Shown here piece by piece: positions 1,735-37,776 of a stretch of 37,776 nucleotides of DNA (position 1 is the first letter of the stretch; the number at the start of each line of letters is the position of its first letter). A program made the translations under genes and the position numbers. The DNA is from Patescibacteria group bacterium (lineage in GTDB: Bacteria > Patescibacteriota > Minisyncoccia > Phycocordibacterales > DATDWN01): NCBI GenBank assembly GCA_030917185.1, contig JAUPVF010000050.1, positions 1 through 37,776 of the forward strand, in the 5' to 3' direction. The notes below the pieces were generated by a model. It saw only the letters and a list, made by a program, of their open reading frames with translations, made no database searches and had not been told where the DNA came from.

Positions 1735-2475
1735 TTATATCACGACCTGCATCAGGGTATCGCCGTCCAAAACATAGAGAGAGTTTTCATCAACGGGGAT
1801 GAATAATGGTGATCCTCCTTTGTATAGTGGCATAAAGTTTTGGATGCTGTCTGTTGATGATTCAATAACATACACACTGTTATATGTTGAAAAAATAATT
1901 GCATCCGAGCGGTTTTTGTAAAAAGTGACATTGCGAACAATTGTATCTGGAGTGATGATTGTGTGGACGGTTGATGTTCCTAATTGTGTAAGAATACTGT
2001 TTTCTTCTACCCAGAGACGGGTGTTATCGGATGCAACAAGCGGATTGTCTTTTGTTGGTAATGTTTTTGTCTGTACAGAATATTTGATGGTCCAATACTC
2101 TGGATCATTTTGTGTAATAATCTGTCCACTCTGATTTTGGCTGACAAAAAAAGGTTTGAGGGAAATGCTCCCATTTTTTGGGACAGTTATATTTTTTGTC
2201 CACGGAAAATATCCTTCACGAGTAACAATAATGTTGTGATATCGGGGCGACAACGGGACAGTGACCGTCTCATTGTCTTTTGTGGTGGTTATTTTTGTGT
2301 TTTGGTCAATGATAACTGTTGTATTTGGTAACGCGAGAGTAATATTAACTTGACCGATTTTACCAATCCAATAATGATCGGTCAGTCTGTATCCTGTGTT
2401 GTATAATATTCCGCCGATAATGAGAATCAGGATACCGATTCCGATCGCCGTGTTCAGTTTTGATTTATTACTCAT
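1735..2475 (-). CDS. membrane-anchored hypothetical protein with PEGA-like beta-sandwich segment (tentative)
   Basis: ORF 1735..2616 trimmed to Met48 (MSNKSKLNTAIGIGILILIIGGILY: short tail plus TM helix). The longer form would run through the mreB start and the shared promoter. REGYFPWTKNITVPKNGSISLKPFF resembles the PEGA motif. The stop lies 7 nt before the priA ATG, so a probable operon. Confidence 0.7.
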   Translation of the reverse strand: MSNKSKLNTAIGIGILILIIGGILYNTGYRLTDHYWIGKIGQVNITLALPNTTVIIDQNTKITTTKDNETVTVPLSPRYHNIIVTREGYFPWTKNITVPKNGSISLKPFFVSQNQSGQIITQNDPEYWTIKYSVQTKTLPTKDNPLVASDNTRLWVEENSILTQLGTSTVHTIITPDTIVRNVTFYKNRSDAIIFSTYNSVYVIESSTDSIQNFMPLYKGGSPLFIPVDENSLYVLDGDTLMQVVI

Positions 2476-2494
2476 GTGGGATATTATAGTGCAT

Positions 2495-3508
2495 ATGAGC
2501 ATTTTTTCCAAAAAATTAGGTATTGACTTGGGCACAGCAAATACGTTGGTTTTTGTGCCTGGTCGCGGTGTGGTGCTCAATGAGCCATCTGTAGTTGCGG
2601 TGTCGGAAGAAGACAATAAAATAATGGCTATTGGAATAGAAGCAAAACAAATGATTGGACGTACTCCAGACAGTATTATTGCCTATCGACCAATGAAAGA
2701 CGGAGTGATTGCTGATTATCGGGTTACAGAGGCAATGCTCCGGTATTACATGGATAAAGCGCTCGGCAAATGGAATTTTGTTAAACCTGAGGTGCTGGTA
2801 TCGGTTCCTGCCGGAGTGACTTCAACAGAACGTCGTGCAGTTATTGAGGCAGCGATACGAGCGGGTGCAAAAAATGCGTATGTGGTTAAGGAACCGATAT
2901 TGGCAGCCATTGGTGCAGGTATTCCGATTCATGAGGCAATGGGTCATATGATTGTTGATATTGGTGGGGGGACGACTGACGTGGCAGTGATTTCTTTGGG
3001 AGGTATTGTTTCGTCAACTTCAGTTAAATGTGCGGGGAATAAAATTGATTACGCAATTGCGGATTATATTAAAAAAACATTCAATTTGGGTATTGGAGAT
3101 AAAACTGCTGAAGACATCAAAATAAAAGTTGGTTCGGCTATTCCTCTTGATGAGGAATTATCAATCACGATTAATGGTCGCGATTTTATTTCAGGACTTC
3201 CTCGAAGTGTGGAAATAAAAACAAATGAAATCGTAAAAGCAATCAGTAAAGATTTGCGAGAAATGATTAAGGCGATTAAGGATGTGTTGCAAGAAACTCC
3301 GCCAGAACTTTCCTCTGATATTATTGACCGAGGTATCATTATGACTGGAGGTACATCACAGTTACGTAATTTCCCTGAACTGGTGTTTCGGCGAACGGGT
3401 GTAAAAGCGGTGTTAGCAAAAGATGCGTTGTATTGTGTGGTTAAGGGAACGGGTATTGCATTGGAACATTTGGATACCTACAAACGGACTATTATTGCAA
3501 AGCGATAG
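2495..3508 (+). CDS. mreB: actin-like rod-shape protein MreB, paralog 1 (not linked to mreCD)
   Basis: ORF 2396..3508 trimmed to Met34: MSIFSKKLGIDLGTANTLVFVPGRGVVLNEPSVVAV. Also has DIGGGTTDVAVISLGG and a typical MreB C-terminus. Confidence 0.9.
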   Translation: MSIFSKKLGIDLGTANTLVFVPGRGVVLNEPSVVAVSEEDNKIMAIGIEAKQMIGRTPDSIIAYRPMKDGVIADYRVTEAMLRYYMDKALGKWNFVKPEVLVSVPAGVTSTERRAVIEAAIRAGAKNAYVVKEPILAAIGAGIPIHEAMGHMIVDIGGGTTDVAVISLGGIVSSTSVKCAGNKIDYAIADYIKKTFNLGIGDKTAEDIKIKVGSAIPLDEELSITINGRDFISGLPRSVEIKTNEIVKAISKDLREMIKAIKDVLQETPPELSSDIIDRGIIMTGGTSQLRNFPELVFRRTGVKAVLAKDALYCVVKGTGIALEHLDTYKRTIIAKR

Positions 3509-8695: not shown

Positions 8696-8700
8696 GATTG

Positions 8701-9765
8701 ATGATGATAAAGAATCTTGAACAGTTCAAACGGCTTGTTTCAAATGATATTGGTATTGATCTTGGTACTGCCAACACTCTCGTTTATTTGCGTGGGAAAG
8801 GAATTGTACTTAACGAGCCATCGGTTGTAGCGGTCAATCAAAAAACAGGTCAGGTGGTGGCTGTTGGTACAGATGCAAAAATGATGCTTGGCAGAACTCC
8901 GGGGCATATAGTTGCGGTGCGACCGCTTGTTGACGGAGTGATTTCTGATTTTGAAGTGACAGAAGAAATGATTACATACCTCCTTAATAAAGCGCAAAAA
9001 GATAATAAAAAATTACTTGGTCCGCGTGTTGTTGTTGGTGTACCGTCTGGTATCACGAACGTAGAAATACGCGCAGTACGAGACGCGACAAAAAATGCAG
9101 GTGCTTCTGAAGTTCATATCGTAGAGGAACCAATGGCAACGGCAATTGGTATCCGGCTTCCCGTACTAGAACCAGTTGGTAGTATGGTGATTGATATTGG
9201 CGGGGGGACATCTGACATTGCGGTCATTTCTTTGGGGGGAGTTGTTCAGTCAAAAAATTTACGTATTGCTGGTGATAAATTGAATGCAGATATTATTTCA
9301 TATATTAGAAGTGAGTTTAAGATTTTGATTGGAGAAAAAACGGCAGAAAATATAAAAATGGCTATTGGGGCGGTACTTCCATCTGAGGTACCACTGGAAG
9401 CATCTATTAAAGGTCGGGATTTGATTTCTGGTTTACCTCGTGAAGTTGTTGTGACTGATTCTGATATTCGTGAAGCGATTTCACAATCAATTAACACATT
9501 GGTTGAATCAACAAAAGAGGTGCTTGAGATAACTCCTCCCGAAATACTTGCTGATGTGATGCAACGAGGTATTTATATTGCTGGTGGCGGGGCATTAATC
9601 AAAGGATTGGCTGAGTTAATTAGTGAATACACAAAAATCCCCGTGCATATCGCAGCAGAACCATTGACAGCCGTCTGTCGTGGCACAGGTATTATTTTAG
9701 AACATATGGACACATACCACGATGTTCTTATTTCAAACGAAGATGAGTTACCGCCTAAAAAGTAA
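8701..9765 (+). CDS. mreB: MreB, paralog 2 (first gene of the mreBCD-PBP2 operon)
   Basis: IGIDLGTANTLVYLRGKGIVLNEPSVVAV, DIGGGTSDIAVISLGG. The ORF track starts at TTG 8698; ATG 8701 is preferred. Confidence 0.9.
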   Translation: MMIKNLEQFKRLVSNDIGIDLGTANTLVYLRGKGIVLNEPSVVAVNQKTGQVVAVGTDAKMMLGRTPGHIVAVRPLVDGVISDFEVTEEMITYLLNKAQKDNKKLLGPRVVVGVPSGITNVEIRAVRDATKNAGASEVHIVEEPMATAIGIRLPVLEPVGSMVIDIGGGTSDIAVISLGGVVQSKNLRIAGDKLNADIISYIRSEFKILIGEKTAENIKMAIGAVLPSEVPLEASIKGRDLISGLPREVVVTDSDIREAISQSINTLVESTKEVLEITPPEILADVMQRGIYIAGGGALIKGLAELISEYTKIPVHIAAEPLTAVCRGTGIILEHMDTYHDVLISNEDELPPKK

Positions 9766-33009: not shown

Positions 33010-34788
33010 TTATAAGTCGTTTTTCTCAATATGCTTGATTCGTTTTGTCAGGTATTCCTCTGCCTTTTCTGAGTATTCGTTGAAATGATCAATAATGGTA
33101 TTTTCCTCGTTGGTTAATTGACGCTTGCTTTTTGTTTTTTCAAGAAGTCTTAAATGTACTTCAATATCTTTTCGTAACTCACTGAGGATTGCGTGTAATT
33201 CCAAATCAGTTTCGTTTAGATCATCAACAATTTGTCTTCGGATCTTCCTTATTCGTAGGATAATATAATATGCCAACAATACAAGTCCGAGTAACACCGC
33301 GACGATTGGGATGAGGAGGGAAAGAATATGTAACGCATTTGCGCTTAATTTAGTAAATGGTGTTGGCTTGACCATAACGAAAGCTTTTTCAGAAGGGATA
33401 CTCAAAACCCCATTATTGGTCATGGCTTGAGTCCAAATTGCTACTTGTTTTGTATTTGAATTGGTAACAAGGGCTTGTGACCAAATACTAATTAACCCTT
33501 CTGATTTGATGTAATTTGTGGTAAAGGCAAAAATACCACGTTCATCAGCCGATACTTGGTATCGTACAGGTTCTTTGTCTGCTTCTTGTACCCAAATCAC
33601 CACTTCAGATTTAGGATACGGAGTGACTCCTTTAATTGAAATTCGTTCACCACTGGTGATTGATTCAGGGAATTCAATAATTTTCGGAGTCTTGATTTCT
33701 GGGGCATTAACAGTAGTGTTTTCTTCGATACTGTTATTTGCTGCATCAAATGCTCGAACAGTTATTTTCCTTTTACCGGGTTGCAGTGCGGGCAACAAAA
33801 TGGATTCACTTGATTCATTACCTGTTGTTGGGTAATCCATTATTTTTTCGTCATCAACAAAAACTACGTATTTTACAACCCCTGATGTGCTATCTGTTGC
33901 AGTTACGTTTAATGAAATAAGGTCATTATTTTTTATTTCAGAATTAAGAGTTAGGTTTTTTGGTGCCGTATTATCAATTTTTATTTTGTAGTGTGATGTG
34001 TTACTCCATCCTGCTCCATTTTTGAATCGAGCATGTATGTACCATACTCCGTCAGGCAAATCGTCTATCGTTTTTTGGGCTATAGCAGGTGAATATGAAA
34101 TAGTCGGTATCGAGTTTGGAAATTTACCCAATAACACCTGCACAGTATCTACATTTTTTGGCAGATTCCATTTGAAAGTAGCTGATGTCTGTGAATACCA
34201 GGTATCGGATGTAGGTATTTGCGCTGATGTTATGACTGGGGGGAGGGGGATGTCCTCTGTAAGAGTTGTTGGGGCTGAGTTTGTTGTCCCTGTGTAGTCC
34301 TGTATCGTTATGGTGGCAGGTGATTTTGTTGAGGTGACGTCTGTTCCCATCCCATCATTTGCTCTTACCGTTCCGGAATTAAAACTGATTGTTGCTGAGC
34401 CAGCACGTTTTGCTTTGAATACAATTGTAAGAATTTTCCCGCTTGATCCGTTATATCCAGGGTTTGGAACTCCACCATTAAAATTAATAATTCCATCGGT
34501 GTTTGAAAACGAAGGGTTTTCTACCCATAAGGGCAACACAGAGCCAGCCGTGCTGACCGACTGGACACTTAATAAATCAGAGGGGAATGATACTACGCCC
34601 TCGGTGTTGTTGATGGATACATTTTCACTGTTTACAAAGATGGATGTTGTAACGGTATCATTTTCAGAAATAGTTGATTTGCTATTTTGTATAAATAAAG
34701 TAGCGGCTTCTGTGTAGTATGGCACGCATAAAAACACTATAAGACCTAGAAAAACATATTTATATTGAATCAAACGTCCTTGGTTCAT
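33010..34788 (-). CDS. surface protein: signal peptide, cohesin-like module, Ig-like region, C-terminal TM helix and cytoplasmic coiled-coil tail
   Basis: MNQGRLIQYKYVFLGLIVFLCVPYYTEA signal. GVVSFPSDLLSVQSVSTAGSVLPLWVENPSFSNTDGIINFNGGVPNPGYNGSSGKILTIVFKAKRAGSATISF (cohesin style). TM helix ILSLLIPIVAVLLGLVLLAYYIIL, then an 81-aa charged tail. Confidence 0.8.
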   Translation of the reverse strand: MNQGRLIQYKYVFLGLIVFLCVPYYTEAATLFIQNSKSTISENDTVTTSIFVNSENVSINNTEGVVSFPSDLLSVQSVSTAGSVLPLWVENPSFSNTDGIINFNGGVPNPGYNGSSGKILTIVFKAKRAGSATISFNSGTVRANDGMGTDVTSTKSPATITIQDYTGTTNSAPTTLTEDIPLPPVITSAQIPTSDTWYSQTSATFKWNLPKNVDTVQVLLGKFPNSIPTISYSPAIAQKTIDDLPDGVWYIHARFKNGAGWSNTSHYKIKIDNTAPKNLTLNSEIKNNDLISLNVTATDSTSGVVKYVVFVDDEKIMDYPTTGNESSESILLPALQPGKRKITVRAFDAANNSIEENTTVNAPEIKTPKIIEFPESITSGERISIKGVTPYPKSEVVIWVQEADKEPVRYQVSADERGIFAFTTNYIKSEGLISIWSQALVTNSNTKQVAIWTQAMTNNGVLSIPSEKAFVMVKPTPFTKLSANALHILSLLIPIVAVLLGLVLLAYYIILRIRKIRRQIVDDLNETDLELHAILSELRKDIEVHLRLLEKTKSKRQLTNEENTIIDHFNEYSEKAEEYLTKRIKHIEKNDL

Positions 34789-35575
34789 GTGATGTTTTGT
34801 TGCGAATTAATTTTCTTATTATAAAAAATACGATTACTATTGCGACAACTCCGGCAATCCATGGTGTATATGAGGGTGTTGGTACGGTGTATGTTTCTAC
34901 GCGGTCATTTCCTGCGTTATCAATTGCATGGACTTCAATAGATCCTTTTAGTGTTTGATCTTTCAATACATACGTTGAACCACTTCGCACAAAAGGTCCT
35001 CCATTTTCTCTAACTTCATATCGGTTTATGCCAGATTGATTGTCTTGTGCTAAAAAAGAGACGAAATATTTTCCATCAAATGTTGCGGGGTCTTTGCCAA
35101 GTTCAATCACAAATGGTTCTGGTGGAGTTGTGTCGGTGCTTAAAAATGTTGAAAATTCATTTGTGACGGTTTTGCCTTGTTTTGCCACGGCTATTTTAGA
35201 ACCGACTCCAGTTACAGCAACTTCTGTCCCACTACCATCATTTATATATGCATGAGTATCGGTAAATGTAACAGAAATGTTTCCTGTTTTTTTAGGTTTT
35301 ATGTACATTGAAAAAACATGTAGAGCGTCACTTTGGATCCCTTGAGGAATACCGCCAGTGAAAGAAATTTGATTTTTTTCGTATGATGGTTTATTTGGCC
35401 ACAGGGAAAGTGGAGATCCTGTTGTGGTGATGTATACCATGTCATAATCACCAGAAACCTTAACTGCACCTTCAATGACGTTTATGTTTTTATTACCGGT
35501 GTTTAGATACACATCAATTCGTGTTGTGTCTCCGACCTTCAGTATGGGTGTACTTGGTTGTATTGATATTTCCAT
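34760..35575 (-). CDS. cohesin-like module protein with a C-terminal TM anchor and no N-terminal signal peptide
   Basis: MEISIQPSTPILKVGDTTRIDVYL...IEGAVKVSGDYDMVYITTTGSPLSLWPNKPSYEKNQISFTGGIPQGIQSDALHVFSMYIKPKKTGNISVTF. TM helix WIAGVVAIVIVFFII. 2-nt gap from the upstream gene and 29-nt overlap with the downstream gene. Confidence 0.75.
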   Translation of the reverse strand: MEISIQPSTPILKVGDTTRIDVYLNTGNKNINVIEGAVKVSGDYDMVYITTTGSPLSLWPNKPSYEKNQISFTGGIPQGIQSDALHVFSMYIKPKKTGNISVTFTDTHAYINDGSGTEVAVTGVGSKIAVAKQGKTVTNEFSTFLSTDTTPPEPFVIELGKDPATFDGKYFVSFLAQDNQSGINRYEVRENGGPFVRSGSTYVLKDQTLKGSIEVHAIDNAGNDRVETYTVPTPSYTPWIAGVVAIVIVFFIIRKLIRNKTSHEPRTFDSI

Positions 35576-35577
35576 AA

Positions 35578-37776
35578 TTATTTTTTAGTAAAAGGGATAC
35601 CTTTTGAGCCCCACTGTGAGAGCATGATTGAAAAGTCTACAGAATCAACTTTATTATCTTTGTTTATATCAGCACATGAATTTCTGAATGGAGGTTTTGT
35701 TTTCCAGTATGAAAGCAAGATAGAAAAATCTACAGAGTTTACTTTGCTGTCTTTATTTAAGTCAGCACCATTACATGTTCCTGTCGATACTGGTTGTTCA
35801 GTAACTGGAGGGATGGTTGGTGCAATACCTGCACCGCCACCACTACCGCCAGCCCCACCACCACCTGACGGAGGTGTCGTTCCTCCACTTGTTGTGATTG
35901 TAAATGATCGGGATGCTCGAGATGATTCCGTTCCGAAAAATGCAGCCAATTTGAAGTAATAGGTGCCAGCGGTTGGAACTGTTGCACTTAGGTTGGTGTT
36001 AAAGTCTTCTCCAGGGTTAATGTATTTTGCAGCTGTCCCGTGGAAGATATCATCTCCACCACCACAGGTGTTGTTTATATTTGAAACAACACACCATTCA
36101 TATTGGTATTCATATCCTGCCATACCTTCGTTTGTGATTGTTACGTTGGCGCTTGCGGTTGGAGTTGTACCAGTGACACTATTTATAATAACCTGAGGAG
36201 GAGAAGTTGTGACGTTCCAATAGTCATTACCGGGTAGTGTTTTCCCACTTTCAACGGTTGCAGATATAACACTTTCCCACACGCCACCGGTAGCACTGCC
36301 ACTTGTTGTGTATGAATATCCATATGTTCCTATACTTGTTCGTGTCATAGGTGCAGCGTTGACTATCACATTTCTATTTGGGTCGTATATTGTGATTGTT
36401 GGGGTATTTGCTGAATCAGTTACTGTGCCATTGTATAAGGTATTTACGGTTGCTAAATATGTACTACCGGCAGAGATTGTTCCAAAGTCAGACATGGTGA
36501 CTGTCCATGGTGATTGAGATGACAGAGTGAGAGAGGTTAGTGTTCGTGTTGCTGAATTCCACACATCAGCTGCTAAGGTACCAAATGATGTTAATGTTCT
36601 ACCAGAATATGCCCAGACATTAGCAGGCAGTGAGGTAATCATGCTACCAATGGATGTTGATGCATTACTAATCGCTGTGTTGGTGTTTCCGTTAATGACC
36701 GCTGCCAAACTTGATGATGCAGTACCAACCGTACTATTCGTGTTTGCATTGATTGTCGCTGTCTCTCCGGTTACATCAGACTGTGTTGCCAAGTTGCCTG
36801 TTAGCAAGTTTGCACCAGTGAGTGTTCGGGTACTGTTATTCCATACATCAGCCGCGAGTGTTCCAAATGTTGACAGACTTCTACTACCATATGCCCACAC
36901 AGTTGCTGGGAGTGATGCAATCATTGAACCGATTGATGTTGAGGCATTACTGATTGCGCTGTTTGTATTTGCATTGATTACACTTGCAAGTGATGATGAT
37001 GCGGTACCAATTTTACTATCCGTGTTGGCATTAACAGTGGTTGCGATACTTTCTGTTTGTGTATTTGTATTTGAATTAACCTGTGAGGTGATTGAGGTTG
37101 ATGCATTTTGTACATCGGTTAAGGTTGCCAGACTACCTGAAGACAAACCAGCGCTGGTTAGTGTACGTGTTCCGTTGTTCCATACATCAGCAACAAGTGT
37201 TCCGAATGTTGTCATACTTCGTGATCCGTATGCCCATATTGTTGCTGGTAGGGAAGTGATCATTGAACCGATTGATGTTGATGCGGTGTTTGTATTTGCA
37301 TTCACTAATGTGACGATTGAACTTGAAGCATTCGCTACTGTACTGTTCGTATTTGCATTGACTGCTGATGTAATGCCACTTGTATTTGAAACGATTGAAG
37401 TGTTAAGAGATGTTGATGCGGTTTGTATGTCAGATAATGTTGCAAGTGATCCAGTAGTGAGCCCACTTCCAGTTAGTGTTCGTGCTGTGTAATTCCAAAT
37501 ATCAGATGCGGTCAATGATCCTCCTGCGACGCTTCCTACTGCAGCATTAAGATTGTCTACAACTTGTTTTCCGACACTTCCACTTGTATTGAGTGTTGAA
37601 GTTGCTGTATTCCACACATCAGCCGCGAGTGTTCCGAATGTTGACAATGATCTCGTTGGATTTGTCCACACATCAGCTGCCAAGGTACCAAATGACGTTA
37701 ATGTCCTACCAGAATATGCCCAGACATTAGCAGGCAGTGAGGTAATCATGCTACCAATGGATGTTGATGCATTACT
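35578..37776 (-). CDS. large repeat (adhesin-like) protein ending in a type I dockerin; N-terminus outside the window
   Basis: The frame stays open upstream of Met 37749 to the window edge (SNASTSIGS continues the repeat). Repeats of SIGSMITSLPAxVWAYxxRxLxxFGTLAADVWN, then a Gly-rich linker. The C-terminal dockerin pair is DLNKDSKVNSVDFSILL / DINKDNKVDSVDFSIML. Confidence 0.85.
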   Translation of the reverse strand, partial: SNASTSIGSMITSLPANVWAYSGRTLTSFGTLAADVWTNPTRSLSTFGTLAADVWNTATSTLNTSGSVGKQVVDNLNAAVGSVAGGSLTASDIWNYTARTLTGSGLTTGSLATLSDIQTASTSLNTSIVSNTSGITSAVNANTNSTVANASSSIVTLVNANTNTASTSIGSMITSLPATIWAYGSRSMTTFGTLVADVWNNGTRTLTSAGLSSGSLATLTDVQNASTSITSQVNSNTNTQTESIATTVNANTDSKIGTASSSLASVINANTNSAISNASTSIGSMIASLPATVWAYGSRSLSTFGTLAADVWNNSTRTLTGANLLTGNLATQSDVTGETATINANTNSTVGTASSSLAAVINGNTNTAISNASTSIGSMITSLPANVWAYSGRTLTSFGTLAADVWNSATRTLTSLTLSSQSPWTVTMSDFGTISAGSTYLATVNTLYNGTVTDSANTPTITIYDPNRNVIVNAAPMTRTSIGTYGYSYTTSGSATGGVWESVISATVESGKTLPGNDYWNVTTSPPQVIINSVTGTTPTASANVTITNEGMAGYEYQYEWCVVSNINNTCGGGDDIFHGTAAKYINPGEDFNTNLSATVPTAGTYYFKLAAFFGTESSRASRSFTITTSGGTTPPSGGGGAGGSGGGAGIAPTIPPVTEQPVSTGTCNGADLNKDSKVNSVDFSILLSYWKTKPPFRNSCADINKDNKVDSVDFSIMLSQWGSKGIPFTKK
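36530..37776 (-). repeat. long in-frame tandem repeats inside the dockerin gene
   Basis: Repeat heads (MIT/ASLPA) at nt 37749, 37263, 36927 and 36642. Segments 36561-36669 and 37668-37776 differ at only about 3 of about 110 positions. Confidence 0.8.

What the first reader, a model, noticed from the sequence alone, without database searches (positions are those of the whole stretch)
33010..37776. Self-contained dockerin/cohesin surface-docking module (three co-directional genes) with no carbohydrate-active enzymes
Seen in sequence:
- Three minus-strand genes are packed with a 2-nt gap and a 29-nt overlap.
- Gene 1 (35578 to the window end) ends with a Gly-rich linker and two canonical Ca-binding dockerin repeats (DLNKDSKVNSVDFSILL, DINKDNKVDSVDFSIML).
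- Genes 2 and 3 each open with a cohesin-style module of about 135 aa, followed by an Ig-like region and one C-terminal TM helix. Gene 3 adds an 81-aa cytoplasmic coiled-coil tail.
Established: cohesin-dockerin pairs assemble cellulosomes, and isolated pairs occur widely with largely unknown roles.
Inference: the membrane-anchored cohesins display the dockerin-tagged repeat protein on the cell surface. That would be a minimal adhesin-display system, which in an episymbiotic CPR-like organism could mediate host attachment. Two different cohesins for one visible dockerin suggests alternative anchoring states.
Basis: partly seen in the sequence, partly recalled or inferred. Interest (0 to 1): 0.75.

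Follow-up and report, generated by a model that had tools for sequence, protein, structure and literature searches.

The report
Membrane-anchored cohesin-dockerin surface display cassette
Three adjacent genes in this ultra-small (Patescibacteria/CPR) bacterium encode a secreted fibre-like protein ending in a dockerin "plug" and two membrane proteins carrying cohesin "sockets"; the trio recurs in many related genomes and most likely tethers a variable surface fibre to the cell, not a cellulose-degrading machine.

Summary
Three co-directional minus-strand genes have a 2-nt gap and a 29-nt overlap.

- **Dockerin:** gene 1 ends in a real type I dockerin (Pfam 36.6 bits against a 22.9 cut-off).
- **Cohesins:** genes 2 and 3 give no Pfam Cohesin hit themselves. 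Their N-terminal modules are paralogous. 48 of 130 orthologous modules hit Cohesin. The AlphaFold model (pLDDT 96) matches only cohesins among its top 50 PDB hits.
- **Synteny:** the order dockerin protein, short cohesin anchor, long cohesin anchor is found in 66 of 81 related loci, all apparently Patescibacteria. Most exceptions are contig edges.
- **Cargo:** only Ig, FN3 or MG2 domains and repeats, never enzymes.
- **Co-variation:** dockerins form two subtypes. The positions that track subtype concentrate in the gene 3 cohesin (6/43 against 0/72 elsewhere, p=0.002).

Best reading is a non-cellulosomal tether for a variable surface fibre. Binding and host attachment remain untested.

One oddity: gene 2 here lacks the signal peptide that 63 of 66 orthologues have, yet it is under purifying selection (dN/dS 0.07).

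I found no paper describing this cassette. I rate it a new variant of a known kind.

The parts
35578..37776 (-). Gene 1 (partial; N-terminus lies beyond the window end): a secreted, dockerin-tagged cargo protein with 732 codons visible. Full-length relatives are about 800-1100 aa.
   Evidence: The frame is open to base 37776. 481 homologues of its non-dockerin part were found. Nearly all carry PF00404, and the named ones are Patescibacteria. Complete relatives start with a signal peptide.
36487..37776 (-). Thr/Ser/Ala/Asn-rich repeat region of gene 1 (aa 1-430). It has four units of 59-162 aa, each starting ASTSIGSMI(T/A)SLPA, and nine copies of the motif (V/I)W....R(T/S)(L/M)(T/S).
   Evidence: Regex and unit listing. 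TRF finds no DNA-level tandem array. There is no Pfam or PHROGs match.
35887..36486 (-). Non-repetitive region of gene 1 (aa 431-630), probably two beta-sandwich domains.
   Evidence: Relatives hit Pfam MG2 (PF01835). The window protein itself gives no hit here, so the fold assignment is inferred.
35773..35886 (-). Gly/Pro/Thr-rich flexible linker of gene 1 (aa 631-668).
   Evidence: Sequence and composition.
35581..35772 (-). Type I dockerin (subtype A) at the extreme C-terminus of gene 1. The two Ca-binding loops are at 35728-35763 and 35635-35670.
   Evidence: Pfam Dockerin_1 at E=5.3e-9, 36.6 bits against a 22.9 cut-off. PDB 2mte/1daq CelS dockerin at E about 1e-6. Conserved at the C-terminus of the upstream gene in 66 related loci.
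34760..35575 (-). Gene 2 (G2): the short cohesin anchor, 271 aa. It consists of a cohesin module, one Ig-like domain, a TM helix and an 18-aa basic tail. It has no signal peptide in this genome.
   Evidence: ORF list. 78 homologues were found. 63 of 66 orthologues have a signal peptide. dN/dS is 0.07 against a strain with dS of 0.34.
35174..35575 (-). G2 cohesin-like module (aa 1-134).
   Evidence: 31% identical to the gene 3 module, E=6e-15. It matches the cassette cohesin HMM at E=2e-39. Some G2-family members carry PF00963.
34817..34861 (-). G2 transmembrane helix (aa 239-253), followed by RKLIRNK.
   Evidence: Sequence. A C-terminal hydrophobic segment is conserved across orthologues.
33010..34788 (-). 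Gene 3 (G3): the long cohesin anchor, 592 aa. It consists of a signal peptide, a cohesin module, three beta-sandwich stalk domains, a TM helix and an 81-aa helical cytoplasmic tail.
   Evidence: ORF list. AlphaFold2 model with pLDDT 85. 65 homologues were found. dN/dS is 0.05.
34705..34788 (-). G3 signal peptide (aa 1-28, ...PYYTEA|AT).
   Evidence: Sequence. Predicted helix at aa 3-20. The cleavage site is inferred.
34288..34704 (-). G3 cohesin module (aa 29-167).
   Evidence: Domain model with pLDDT 96.4 and pTM 0.89. The top 50 Foldseek PDB hits are all cohesins, with E down to 2e-9 and TM-scores of 0.63-0.77. The family profile hits R. flavefaciens ScaB cohesin 5m2o at E=3e-4, and 48 of 130 orthologous modules hit PF00963. 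Positions that track dockerin subtype are concentrated here.
33358..34242 (-). G3 stalk (aa 183-477): three Ig-like beta-sandwich domains.
   Evidence: Strand pattern of the AlphaFold2 model. Among relatives, 27 of 36 hit Big_13 and 12 of 36 hit DUF7743. The family profile (A1) matches Ig-domain adhesins 2yn3 and 7dm0.
33256..33327 (-). G3 transmembrane helix (aa 488-511).
   Evidence: Sequence. It lies within predicted helix 477-555.
33013..33255 (-). G3 cytoplasmic helical tail (aa 512-592). It starts RIRKIRR, and the family consensus holds R.LT.EE.
   Evidence: Predicted helices 477-555 and 560-591. Consensus of alignment A1. No known family matches it.

Best explanation
This is a non-cellulosomal cohesin-dockerin tethering cassette that is conserved across Patescibacteria.

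**Proposed mechanism.**
1. Gene 1 encodes a Sec-exported, non-enzymatic, fibre-like protein. It has a variable head and repeats, then beta-sandwich domains and a flexible Gly-rich linker. Its extreme C-terminus is a type I dockerin.
2. Gene 3 encodes a type I membrane protein. It holds one cohesin module about three Ig domains above the membrane and has a conserved helical tail in the cytoplasm.
3. Gene 2 encodes a shorter anchor with a paralogous cohesin.
4. After export, the Ca-loaded dockerin plugs into the cohesin. The partner is gene 3 with the better support, and possibly gene 2 too. The fibre is then held non-covalently on the cell surface.

In effect the cohesin-dockerin pair does the job that sortase/LPXTG or SLH anchoring does for the fibrillar adhesins and anchoring scaffoldins of Firmicutes. 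The likely biological role is attachment (to a host cell, a surface or a partner) or a structural part of the envelope.

**Shown:** the module identities, the topology signals, the conserved synteny, the non-enzymatic cargo, purifying selection, and co-variation between dockerin subtype and cohesin.

**Inferred:** the physical binding, which cohesin is used, Ca dependence, and the biological role.
For: **Module identity**
- Dockerin: Pfam 36.6 bits against a 22.9 cut-off. The best PDB matches are type I dockerins.
- Cohesin: the gene 3 N-domain model has pLDDT 96.4. Its 50 best PDB matches are all cohesins, and they include single-cohesin anchoring proteins OlpA (3ul4) and OlpC (4dh2) and non-cellulosomal cohesins (2xdh, 2vo8).
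- 48 of 130 orthologous modules hit PF00963. The profile hits 5m2o at E=3e-4.
- The gene 2 module is paralogous to the gene 3 module.

**Synteny**
- 66 of 81 non-duplicate related loci show dockerin protein, then G2, then G3 on one strand. The median gap between the dockerin gene and G2 is 7 nt. Most exceptions are contig edges.
- The dockerin is always the last module of the upstream gene.
- No other dockerin occurs in 937 kb of flanks.

**Cargo**
- Complete cargo proteins begin with signal peptides.
- They contain only Ig-like domains: Big_6, MG2 and FN3. Some exceed 2650 aa with 13-16 FN3 domains.
- Homologues of the non-dockerin part of gene 1 almost all carry a dockerin.

**Co-variation**
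- Dockerins form two subtypes, A and B. One contig carries one cassette of each.
- Among columns conserved within both subtypes, the ones that discriminate subtype are 6/43 in the G3 cohesin against 0/72 elsewhere (p=0.002). At a looser cut-off they are 15/60 against 5/118 (p=8e-5).
- 8 of the 15 lie on predicted strands 3, 5, 6 and 8, in an i, i+2 pattern (59/61/63 and 104/106).
- The homologous Gly-to-Ile change is seen in both G3 (position 106) and G2 (position 75).
- Dockerin distances track cohesin-module distances (r=0.62 and 0.66) more closely than they track the rest of the same proteins (r=0.30 and 0.49).

**Selection and expression**
- dN/dS is 0.04-0.07 for all three genes against a strain with dS of 0.3-0.6.
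- Cohesin- and dockerin-domain proteins of a CPR bacterium were detected by metaproteomics (bioRxiv 10.1101/2021.08.21.457207).
- A dockerin-cohesin pair is known to anchor an adhesin under load in R. flavefaciens: CttA bound to ScaE (PMC4266597).
Against: - No interface was predicted or measured.
- The two window proteins give no Pfam Cohesin hit themselves and no direct PDB sequence hit.
- Gene 2 lacks a signal peptide in this genome. Its cohesin may not be outside the cell, which does not fit a simple two-socket model.
- Co-variation with dockerin subtype is partly confounded by ancestry. For 59 of 67 loci the nearest neighbour by stalk identity has the same subtype.
- I assigned the strands to the canonical 8-3-6-5 face by reading strand order in the model. 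No structural superposition was done.
- The role in host attachment has no direct evidence. Paceibacteria-type organisms are uncultured.
Confidence: 0.72

Rival explanations
1. The molecular mechanism is the same (cohesin-dockerin tether), but the role is structural. The complex would be a constitutive part of the envelope, such as an S-layer-like coat, a spacer or a cell-wall-spanning strut, and not an adhesin for host attachment.
For: The cassette is widespread and sits among housekeeping genes here: DnaB, MreB, PBP2 and MraZ/MraW. All three genes are under strong purifying selection between strains. G3 has a conserved cytoplasmic tail, which suggests a link to internal components.
Against: The cargo varies greatly between genomes, from 314 to over 2660 aa and across different domain classes. 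That is more typical of surface proteins facing hosts or phages than of a fixed structural layer. Strings of FN3 or Ig domains with a distinct head are the usual fibrillar-adhesin design (my own knowledge).
Confidence: 0.18
2. The cohesin-like modules of genes 2 and 3 do not bind the neighbouring dockerin. They would be generic beta-sandwich modules binding glycans or other ligands, and the dockerin would have a partner elsewhere or a different role. The three genes would be linked only by co-expression.
For: The window proteins give no direct Pfam Cohesin hit. 8 of 130 modules also touch the BatD/DUF11-like family. No interface was tested.
Against: The top 50 structural matches are all cohesins. 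The one-dockerin, two-cohesin gene order is kept in 66 of 81 loci. Subtype-discriminating positions are concentrated in the G3 cohesin and absent from its stalk. Only one other cohesin-like ORF was found in 937 kb of flanks.
Confidence: 0.07
3. It is a minimal cellulosome or polysaccharide-degrading complex. A metaproteomic study read cohesin and dockerin proteins of a CPR bacterium this way.
For: Cohesin and dockerin are the hallmark cellulosome modules. Bell et al. interpreted expressed cohesin and dockerin proteins of Ca. Shapirobacterales as a cellulosome.
Against: No glycoside hydrolase, lyase, esterase or CBM was found in the cassette. None was found in 42 complete and 3 giant orthologous cargo proteins either, nor among the 29 other window ORFs scanned. 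Each anchor has one cohesin and no CBM.
Confidence: 0.02
4. This is an add-on for this genome only. Gene 2 would be made partly as a fusion to gene 1 through a -1 ribosomal slip on ACT AAA AAA TAA. That would give cargo-dockerin-KKII-cohesin-Ig-TM, exported by gene 1's signal peptide, and would explain the missing signal peptide.
For: Gene 2 is in the -1 frame, 2 nt after the gene 1 stop. A P-site Lys-tRNA slip from AAA to the overlapping AAA pairs perfectly. The junction is identical in strains that differ at nearby synonymous sites. Gene 2 is under purifying selection despite having no signal peptide. Other orthologues without a signal peptide also abut the dockerin gene's stop (L012 and L047).
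Against: There is no stimulatory RNA structure downstream (z=+0.57). The run is only six A's. L012 and L047 are in frame behind a TAA, so they would need read-through, a different mechanism. L075 has a 221-nt gap. A gap of a few nucleotides is the norm for the whole family.
Confidence: 0.08

Closest known systems
Single-cohesin anchoring proteins of Clostridium thermocellum (OlpA, OlpC) bound to type I dockerins (PDB 3ul4, 4dh2)
   Same: One type I-like cohesin per cell-bound protein captures a type I dockerin at the C-terminus of a secreted protein. These are among the closest structural matches, with TM-scores of 0.72-0.77.
   Different: Olp proteins are held on the wall by SLH domains and capture enzymes. 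This SLH anchoring is from my own knowledge. Here the anchor is a C-terminal TM helix, plus a cytoplasmic coiled-coil tail in G3. The cargo is non-enzymatic, and the three genes form one fixed cassette.
Ruminococcus flavefaciens CttA XDoc bound to the ScaE cohesin
   Same: A non-enzymatic adhesion protein is tethered to the cell through its C-terminal dockerin. The receptor is a single-cohesin anchoring protein, and the link bears mechanical load (PMC4266597).
   Different: ScaE is sortase-anchored to peptidoglycan. The dockerin is type III and has an X-module. The head domains of CttA are cellulose-binding modules, and the pair belongs to a large cellulosome. Here there is no X-module (a Gly-rich linker instead), a TM anchor, two paralogous cohesin anchors, and no cellulosome.
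Non-cellulosomal cohesin-dockerin pairs (Archaeoglobus fulgidus 2xdh; Clostridium perfringens glycosidase/toxin complexes 2vo8, 2jh2, 2w1n)
   Same: Cohesin and dockerin modules are used outside plant cell-wall degradation. They are structural matches, with TM-scores of 0.70-0.76. 2w1n also has a cohesin followed by an FN3 domain.
   Different: Those modules sit in enzymes or soluble multi-modular proteins. They are not in dedicated membrane anchors and not in a conserved three-gene cassette.
Sortase/LPXTG-anchored fibrillar adhesins of Gram-positive bacteria (a comparison of how it works, not membership)
   Same: They share the design of signal peptide, variable head, stalk of repeated Ig or FN3 domains, and C-terminal cell-anchoring signal. 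The cargo here has 13-16 FN3 domains in some genomes.
   Different: Anchoring here would be non-covalent and protein to protein (dockerin into a membrane-bound cohesin), not covalent to peptidoglycan. No LPXTG motif is visible at the C-terminus of gene 1.

Membership tests
Dockerin type I (Pfam PF00404) | Profile match above the curated threshold | tested here: met
   36.6 bits against a gathering cut-off of 22.9, E=5.3e-9, aa 672-718 of gene 1. 38 of 42 orthologous cargo proteins also match.
Dockerin type I (Pfam PF00404) | Two tandem segments of about 22 residues, each an EF-hand-like 12-residue Ca loop (D/N at positions 1, 3, 5, 9 and 12) followed by a helix | tested here: met
   DLNKDSKVNSVD+FSILLSYW and DINKDNKVDSVD+FSIMLSQW, with 16 of 20 positions identical between the repeats. 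Both repeats align to the solved CelS dockerin 2mte. The helices are inferred from the alignment, not modelled.
Dockerin type I (Pfam PF00404) | Ca-dependent folding and binding to a cohesin | not testable with these tools
   Needs biochemistry or multimer prediction.
Cohesin (Pfam PF00963) | Profile match of the window proteins themselves | tested here: not met
   Gene 2 and gene 3 give no Cohesin hit even at E up to 1. They give no PDB cohesin by single-sequence search either. This is a sensitivity limit and not an exclusion; see the next rows.
Cohesin (Pfam PF00963) | Homology to sequences that do match the family profile | tested here: met
   48 of 130 orthologous N-modules hit PF00963, best E=1.2e-10. 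Among full-length G3 relatives, 6 of 36 hit it. Some G2 relatives carry PF00963. The module profile hits R. flavefaciens ScaB cohesin 5m2o at E=3.2e-4. NCBI names some relatives 'cohesin domain-containing protein'.
Cohesin (Pfam PF00963) | Nine-stranded flattened beta-sandwich (jelly-roll) fold like solved cohesins | tested here: met
   The model has pLDDT 96.4 and pTM 0.89. All 50 best Foldseek PDB matches are cohesins of types I, II and III and non-cellulosomal ones, with E from 2e-9 to 7e-7 and TM-scores of 0.63-0.77. Only the G3 module was modelled. The G2 module is assigned by paralogy.
Cohesin (Pfam PF00963) | Binds a dockerin on the face formed by strands 8, 3, 6 and 5 | tested here: inconclusive
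   The evidence is indirect only. Positions that track dockerin subtype concentrate in the G3 cohesin (6/43 against 0/72, p=0.002). 8 of 15 lie on predicted strands 3, 5, 6 and 8. No interface model or binding assay was possible.
Cellulosome | Dockerin-bearing carbohydrate-active enzymes | tested here: not met
   No enzyme domain was found in gene 1, in 42 complete cargo orthologues or in 3 giant ones. No CAZyme family turned up among the 29 other window ORFs scanned. Whole genomes were not examined.
Cellulosome | Scaffoldin with several cohesins and a carbohydrate-binding module | tested here: not met
   G2 and G3 each have one cohesin and no CBM. The only two-cohesin ORFs are G2-G3 read-through fusions in L037 and L070.
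Anchoring scaffoldins (Olp/SdbA/ScaE type) | Cell-wall anchoring through SLH repeats or a sortase LPXTG signal | tested here: not met
   Pfam finds no SLH domain, and the C-termini show a TM helix plus basic residues with no LPXTG motif. The cassette works like an anchoring scaffoldin but uses a different anchor.

The most novel reading that the evidence does not exclude
Patescibacteria carry a phylum-wide, modular plug-and-socket system in at least two orthogonal, co-evolving specificity lineages. Dockerin subtypes A and B each have a matched G3 cohesin, and the two can sit together in one genome. This would let these tiny cells exchange highly variable attachment fibres on a constant membrane socket. 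The conserved cytoplasmic coiled-coil of G3 would couple fibre engagement or load to the cell interior. In lineages such as this one, the second cohesin (G2) has lost its signal peptide and would act in a different way, for example fused to the cargo by recoding or acting before export.
Probability: 0.2. Interest if true: 0.85.

Novelty: new variant of a known kind. Interest (0 to 1): 0.62.

Why it matters
How ultra-small CPR/Patescibacteria cells attach to hosts or surfaces is a central open question, and most lineages outside Saccharibacteria cannot be cultured.

This cassette gives a concrete, widespread and testable candidate:
- a constant membrane socket (G3, perhaps G2)
- a dockerin plug
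- a cargo that varies from about 300 aa to over 2600 aa between genomes

Every part can be expressed recombinantly, so binding, Ca dependence and A/B specificity can be measured without culturing the organism.

The result also warns against annotating cohesin and dockerin hits in CPR genomes as cellulosomes. For protein engineers, it offers small TM-anchored cohesins and two possibly orthogonal dockerin types.

Tried and rejected
1. **Direct Pfam, NCBIfam and PHROGs scans of genes 2 and 3.** No cohesin hit. The only sub-threshold matches were OmpL47-type, Ig_RIMBP2 and DUF6795.
2. **Single-sequence PDB searches of genes 2 and 3.** Nothing meaningful.
3. **Foldseek with the whole 592-aa G3 model.** The list was dominated by multi-Ig and FN3 proteins and was not diagnostic. 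A cohesin-FN3 construct (2w1n) came only at rank 24. A domain-only model solved this.
4. **Tandem Repeats Finder on gene 1 DNA.** No array was found. The repeats are visible only at protein level.
5. **Programmed -1 frameshift joining gene 1 to gene 2.** The slip is mechanically possible. There is no downstream RNA structure (z=+0.57) and no shared recoding signal among the other orthologues that lack a signal peptide. I kept it only as a low-probability rival.
6. **Promoter and terminator scan of the cassette.** Counts were at or below the shuffle expectation, so this was uninformative.
7. **Link to the essential dockerin-domain protein SEML1_0315 of Southlakia epibionticum (PMC10633639).** That gene stands alone between an alpha/beta hydrolase gene and a tRNA gene, with no cohesin neighbours. 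It is not the same cassette.
8. **Phage tail-fibre origin of the (V/I)W....RTLT repeats.** No PHROGs hit. All named homologues are dockerin-tagged Patescibacteria proteins.
9. **A conserved fourth gene.** The best candidate, an upstream secreted protein of about 311 aa, occurs in only 18 of 66 loci.

Full report
**1. The observation**

The ORF list shows three minus-strand ORFs:
- gene 3 at 33010..34788 (592 aa)
- gene 2 at 34760..35575 (271 aa)
- gene 1 from 35578 upward

Translation of 35578-37776 is open for all 732 codons, so gene 1 runs off the window. The 2-nt gap and the 29-nt overlap are exact.

The C-terminus of gene 1 reads GGTTPPSGGGGAGGSGGGAGIAPTIPPVTEQPVSTGTC, then NGA-DLNKDSKVNSVD-FSILLSYWKTKPPFRNSCA-DINKDNKVDSVD-FSIMLSQWGSKGIPFTKK. 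Gene 3 has a hydrophobic span at aa 488-511, followed by RIRKIRR and an 81-aa tail. Gene 2 has WIAGVVAIVIVFFII followed by RKLIRNK. All the descriptive claims hold.

**2. The dockerin**

- Pfam Dockerin_1 matches gene 1 aa 672-718 at E=5.3e-9, 36.6 bits against a cut-off of 22.9.
- The last 73 residues match solved type I dockerins. The best is C. thermocellum CelS (2mte, 1daq) at E about 1e-6. Others are Cel9, CelD and the C. cellulolyticum CelA dockerin of the dual-binding-mode study (2vn5, 2vn6).
- Both 12-residue loops have D/N at positions 1, 3, 5, 9 and 12.
- The two repeats are identical at 16 of 20 positions. That internal symmetry goes with dual binding modes in known dockerins (my own knowledge; the title of 2vn5 says the same).
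- No X-module precedes the dockerin. A Gly-rich linker does.

**3. The cohesins**

Neither gene 2 nor gene 3 gives a Pfam Cohesin hit or a PDB hit by single sequence. Four lines of evidence still place their N-terminal modules in the cohesin family.
- The two modules are paralogous: 31% identity, E=6e-15.
- Gene 3 has 65 and gene 2 has 78 database homologues. Some carry precomputed PF00963, and NCBI names some of them 'cohesin domain-containing protein'. I cut 130 orthologous modules out of related loci; 48 hit PF00963 on their own, best E=1.2e-10. The only other recurrent family is BatD, with 8 hits.
- A profile of those modules hits R. flavefaciens ScaB cohesin 3 (5m2o at E=3.2e-4; 5aoz at E=4.5e-4).
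- An AlphaFold2 model of G3 aa 26-170 has pLDDT 96.4 and pTM 0.89. Its 50 best Foldseek matches in the PDB are all cohesins, with E from 2e-9 to 7e-7 and TM-scores of 0.63-0.77. They include type I, II and III cohesins, the single-cohesin anchors OlpA and OlpC, and the non-cellulosomal cohesins of A. fulgidus and C. perfringens.

The full-length G3 model (pLDDT 85) adds three beta-sandwich domains, a TM helix and a helical hairpin tail. Relatives hit Big_13 (27 of 36) and DUF7743 (12 of 36) in the stalk.

**4. Synteny**

Of these, 566 were confirmed by tblastn, and 80 loci were fetched. Some genomes may contribute more than one stretch.

Record titles name Paceibacteria/Parcubacteria lineages (Adler-, Wolfe-, Jorgensen-, Colwell-, Portnoy-, Sung-bacteria) and Magasanik-, Komeili- and Doudna-bacteria. 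Many are generic 'Saccharibacteria' bin labels. A few titles name other phyla, and I take these to be bin mislabels; I did not check this.

I called ORFs and scored them with HMMs for G3, G2 and the dockerin. Of 81 non-duplicate loci, 66 have the full ordered triplet on one strand. The median gap between the dockerin gene and G2 is 7 nt. The 15 exceptions break down as follows:
- Most are cut by a contig end.
- L012 is an artefact of overlapping ORF calls.
- L037 and L070 have G2 and G3 fused into one ORF.
- L038 has two G3 copies.
- L055 and L080 are real exceptions.

Other points from the survey:
- The dockerin is always the last module of the upstream protein.
- There is no second dockerin and only one extra cohesin-like ORF in 937 kb of flanks, and none elsewhere in the window.
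- No fourth gene is universally linked. The best candidate is present in 18 of 66 loci.
- Neighbouring genes differ between genomes. Here they are housekeeping genes.

**5. The cargo**

- Complete cargo proteins range from 314 to 1454 aa, and partial ones exceed 2660 aa.
- They start with signal peptides.
- In 42 of them Pfam finds only Dockerin_1 (38), Big_6 (23), MG2 (9), FN3 and similar Ig-like families.
- Three giants have 13-16 FN3 domains.
- No enzyme domain was found.

The visible part of gene 1 has four repeat units and nine (V/I)W....R(T/S)(L/M)(T/S) motifs in a region rich in Thr, Ser, Ala and Asn. A search with its non-dockerin part found 481 homologues. Nearly all of those listed carry PF00404 and many carry MG2. 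The named ones are Patescibacteria, and full lengths are about 800-1100 aa. A 60%-identical full-length relative (L006, 831 aa) shows the full order: signal peptide, a small head domain, repeats, two sandwich domains, Gly linker, dockerin. Assemblies often break or carry N runs inside these repeats. That explains why the window ends there.

**6. Evidence bearing on binding**

Dockerins fall into two sequence subtypes.
- Subtype A reads ...KVNS.DFSILL.FWK..PPF..VDIN.D.KV.SVDFSILLY.WG. The window belongs to it, and it has 36 members.
- Subtype B reads ...RVNLVDFSI.AYWYKR...P..DLNGDGKV.L.DFSIMA.YWTG and ends the protein. It has 31 members.

The differences fall at loop positions 10-11 and helix positions 16-18. 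In known type I dockerins these are the specificity determinants (my own knowledge). One contig (JBDKKJ010000011.1) carries an A cassette (L009) and a B cassette (L024).

I then took the alignment columns that are at least 75% conserved within both subtypes and asked where the consensus differs between subtypes:

| Region | Conserved columns | Discriminating columns |
|---|---|---|
| G3 cohesin | 43 | 6 |
| G3 stalk | 35 | 0 |
| G3 TM and tail | 5 | 0 |
| G2 cohesin | 15 | 0 |
| G2 rest | 17 | 0 |

Fisher's exact test for the G3 cohesin against all other regions gives p=0.002. At a 60% cut-off the counts are 15/60 against 5/118 (p=8e-5), with 3/21 in the G2 cohesin.

Eight of the 15 G3 positions lie on predicted strands 3 (59, 61, 63), 5 (90), 6 (101, 104, 106) and 8 (142). 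Their i, i+2 spacing suggests one face of the sheet. The homologous Gly-to-Ile change occurs in both G3 (position 106) and G2 (position 75). In canonical cohesins, strands 8, 3, 6 and 5 form the dockerin-binding face (my own knowledge). I mapped the strands by order in the model, not by superposition.

A mirror-tree test points the same way. Dockerin distances correlate with cohesin-module distances (r=0.62 for G2, 0.66 for G3) more than with the rest of the same proteins (0.49 and 0.30). The partial correlations are 0.48 and 0.54, with permutation p below 0.001.

Caveats:
- The subtypes are partly phylogenetic (59 of 67 nearest neighbours share the subtype).
- The sample has 67 cassettes.
- Poorer alignment of the variable regions lowers their correlations.

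The G3 cohesin and the dockerin are the most conserved modules. The G2 cohesin is much more variable.

**7. Selection**

A related strain (L087) has the same gene order. dN/dS is 0.07 for gene 2 (dS 0.34), 0.05 for gene 3 (dS 0.57) and 0.04 for the last 387 codons of gene 1 (dS 0.29). All three genes are maintained by selection.

**8. An unexplained feature of this window**

Gene 2 starts at the first residue of its mature cohesin module (MEISIQP...). A TAA lies 12 nt upstream in its frame, so it has no signal peptide. By contrast, 63 of 66 orthologues have a typical one.

The same state occurs in strains L086 and L087, in L047, L075 and L012, and in database proteins P0107, P0134, P0140 and P0141. 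It therefore probably arose more than once.

The junction here is ACT AAA AAA TAA TT ATG, and gene 2 is in the -1 frame. L047 and L012 are in frame, one codon after a TAA. L075 has a 221-nt gap. There is no stimulatory RNA structure downstream.

I cannot say how this cohesin would reach the outside. Three options are a low-level recoding fusion to gene 1, unusual N-tail translocation driven by the C-terminal TM helix, or a cytoplasmic role. The basic residues after that helix favour the C-terminus being inside. In the fused G2-G3 ORFs of L037 and L070, the G2 TM helix and the G3 signal peptide sit back to back. That arrangement is topologically consistent with both cohesins being outside.

**9. 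Mechanism**

The best-supported reading is a non-covalent surface tether.
1. The cargo is exported by Sec.
2. Its dockerin folds with Ca.
3. The dockerin plugs into the G3 cohesin, which is held on a three-domain stalk above the membrane.
4. G2 offers a second, lower and more variable socket in most genomes.

Module identities, topology signals, synteny, cargo content, selection and co-variation are shown. Binding, stoichiometry, Ca dependence and the biological role are inferred. The cargo design (variable head, long Ig, FN3 or repeat stalk, C-terminal anchor signal) is that of fibrillar adhesins. I therefore favour attachment, with a structural envelope role as the main rival.

**10. Comparison with known systems**

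- It is not a cellulosome. It has no enzymes, no CBM and no multi-cohesin scaffoldin.
- It works like the single-cohesin anchoring proteins OlpA and OlpC of C. thermocellum.
- It works even more like R. flavefaciens ScaE-CttA, where a dockerin-cohesin pair ties a non-enzymatic adhesion protein to the cell and resists high force (PMC4266597).
- It differs from both in four ways: a TM anchor instead of SLH or sortase, a conserved cytoplasmic tail, two paralogous anchors, and a fixed three-gene cassette in a phylum of ultra-small bacteria.

**11. Prior knowledge**

Searches of the paper library combined dockerin or cohesin with Patescibacteria, Candidate Phyla Radiation, Parcubacteria, CPR bacteria, Paceibacteria, DPANN and episymbiont. 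None turned up a description of this cassette. Two passing mentions exist:
- An essential dockerin-domain envelope protein in Southlakia (PMC10633639). It is a stand-alone gene and not this cassette.
- Expressed cohesin and dockerin proteins in Ca. Shapirobacterales, read as a cellulosome (10.1101/2021.08.21.457207).

The library lacks most subscription journals, so a prior description cannot be excluded.

**12. Verdict**

I rate it a new variant of a known kind, with interest 0.62. Confidence that this is a cohesin-dockerin surface tether is 0.72. Confidence that its role is host attachment is clearly lower and I do not put a number on it.

Noticed in passing
window 34760-35592 (gene 1 stop / gene 2 start): Gene 2 has no signal peptide, although 63 of 66 orthologues do. 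Its ATG lies 2 nt after the gene 1 stop in the -1 frame (ACT AAA AAA TAA TT ATG). The junction is identical in two diverged strains, and gene 2 has dN/dS of 0.07. Other lineages that lack the signal peptide (L012, L047) sit in frame one codon after a TAA.
   Followed up: partly
window 36527-37492 (+ strand): A 321-aa ORF runs antisense through the gene 1 repeat region. A gene caller annotated the equivalent antisense ORF in relative L086 (228-1193) and truncated the dockerin gene to 303 aa. It is most likely a spurious ORF produced by the repeat composition.
   Followed up: partly
L009 and L024 (both on contig JBDKKJ010000011.1): One Parcubacteria contig carries two complete cassettes. One has a subtype A dockerin and the other a subtype B dockerin. 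Their modules are only 24-43% identical, which suggests two paralogous and possibly orthogonal systems in one cell.
   Followed up: partly
L037 6871-9471; L070 6790-9387: G2 and G3 are read as one ORF of about 866 aa. The G2 TM helix is directly followed by the G3 signal peptide, forming a helical hairpin. The topology is consistent, and signal peptidase could cut the product back into two proteins.
   Followed up: partly
L022 1-7956, L051 2-7996, L082 3-7991: These are giant cassette cargo proteins, over 2650 aa and still incomplete. They have 13-16 FN3 domains before the dockerin.
   Followed up: yes
upstream of the dockerin gene in 18 of 66 related loci (e.g. L067 5272-6207): A secreted protein of about 311 aa on the same strand recurs upstream of the cassette in a subset of genomes. 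A second secreted family of about 351 aa occurs upstream in 10 loci, often in two copies. Neither could be seen here because the window ends inside gene 1.
   Followed up: no
window 2396-3508 and 8698-9765: The window holds two MreB/Mbl paralogues about 45% identical to each other, and two PBP transpeptidase genes. MreC, MraZ, MraW and a Mur ligase are also present. That is a full rod-shape and cell-wall gene set in a CPR-type genome.
   Followed up: no
window 37776 (end) and N runs in L006, L031, L049, L050, L059: Assemblies repeatedly break or contain gaps inside the repeat region of this cargo family. Database lengths and start sites for these proteins are therefore often wrong.
   Followed up: partly
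L002 18159-21710: About 6 kb downstream of one related cassette lies a 2165-aa protein with a Peptidase_S74 domain, the tail-fibre-type intramolecular chaperone. It may be another fibrous surface protein.
   Followed up: no
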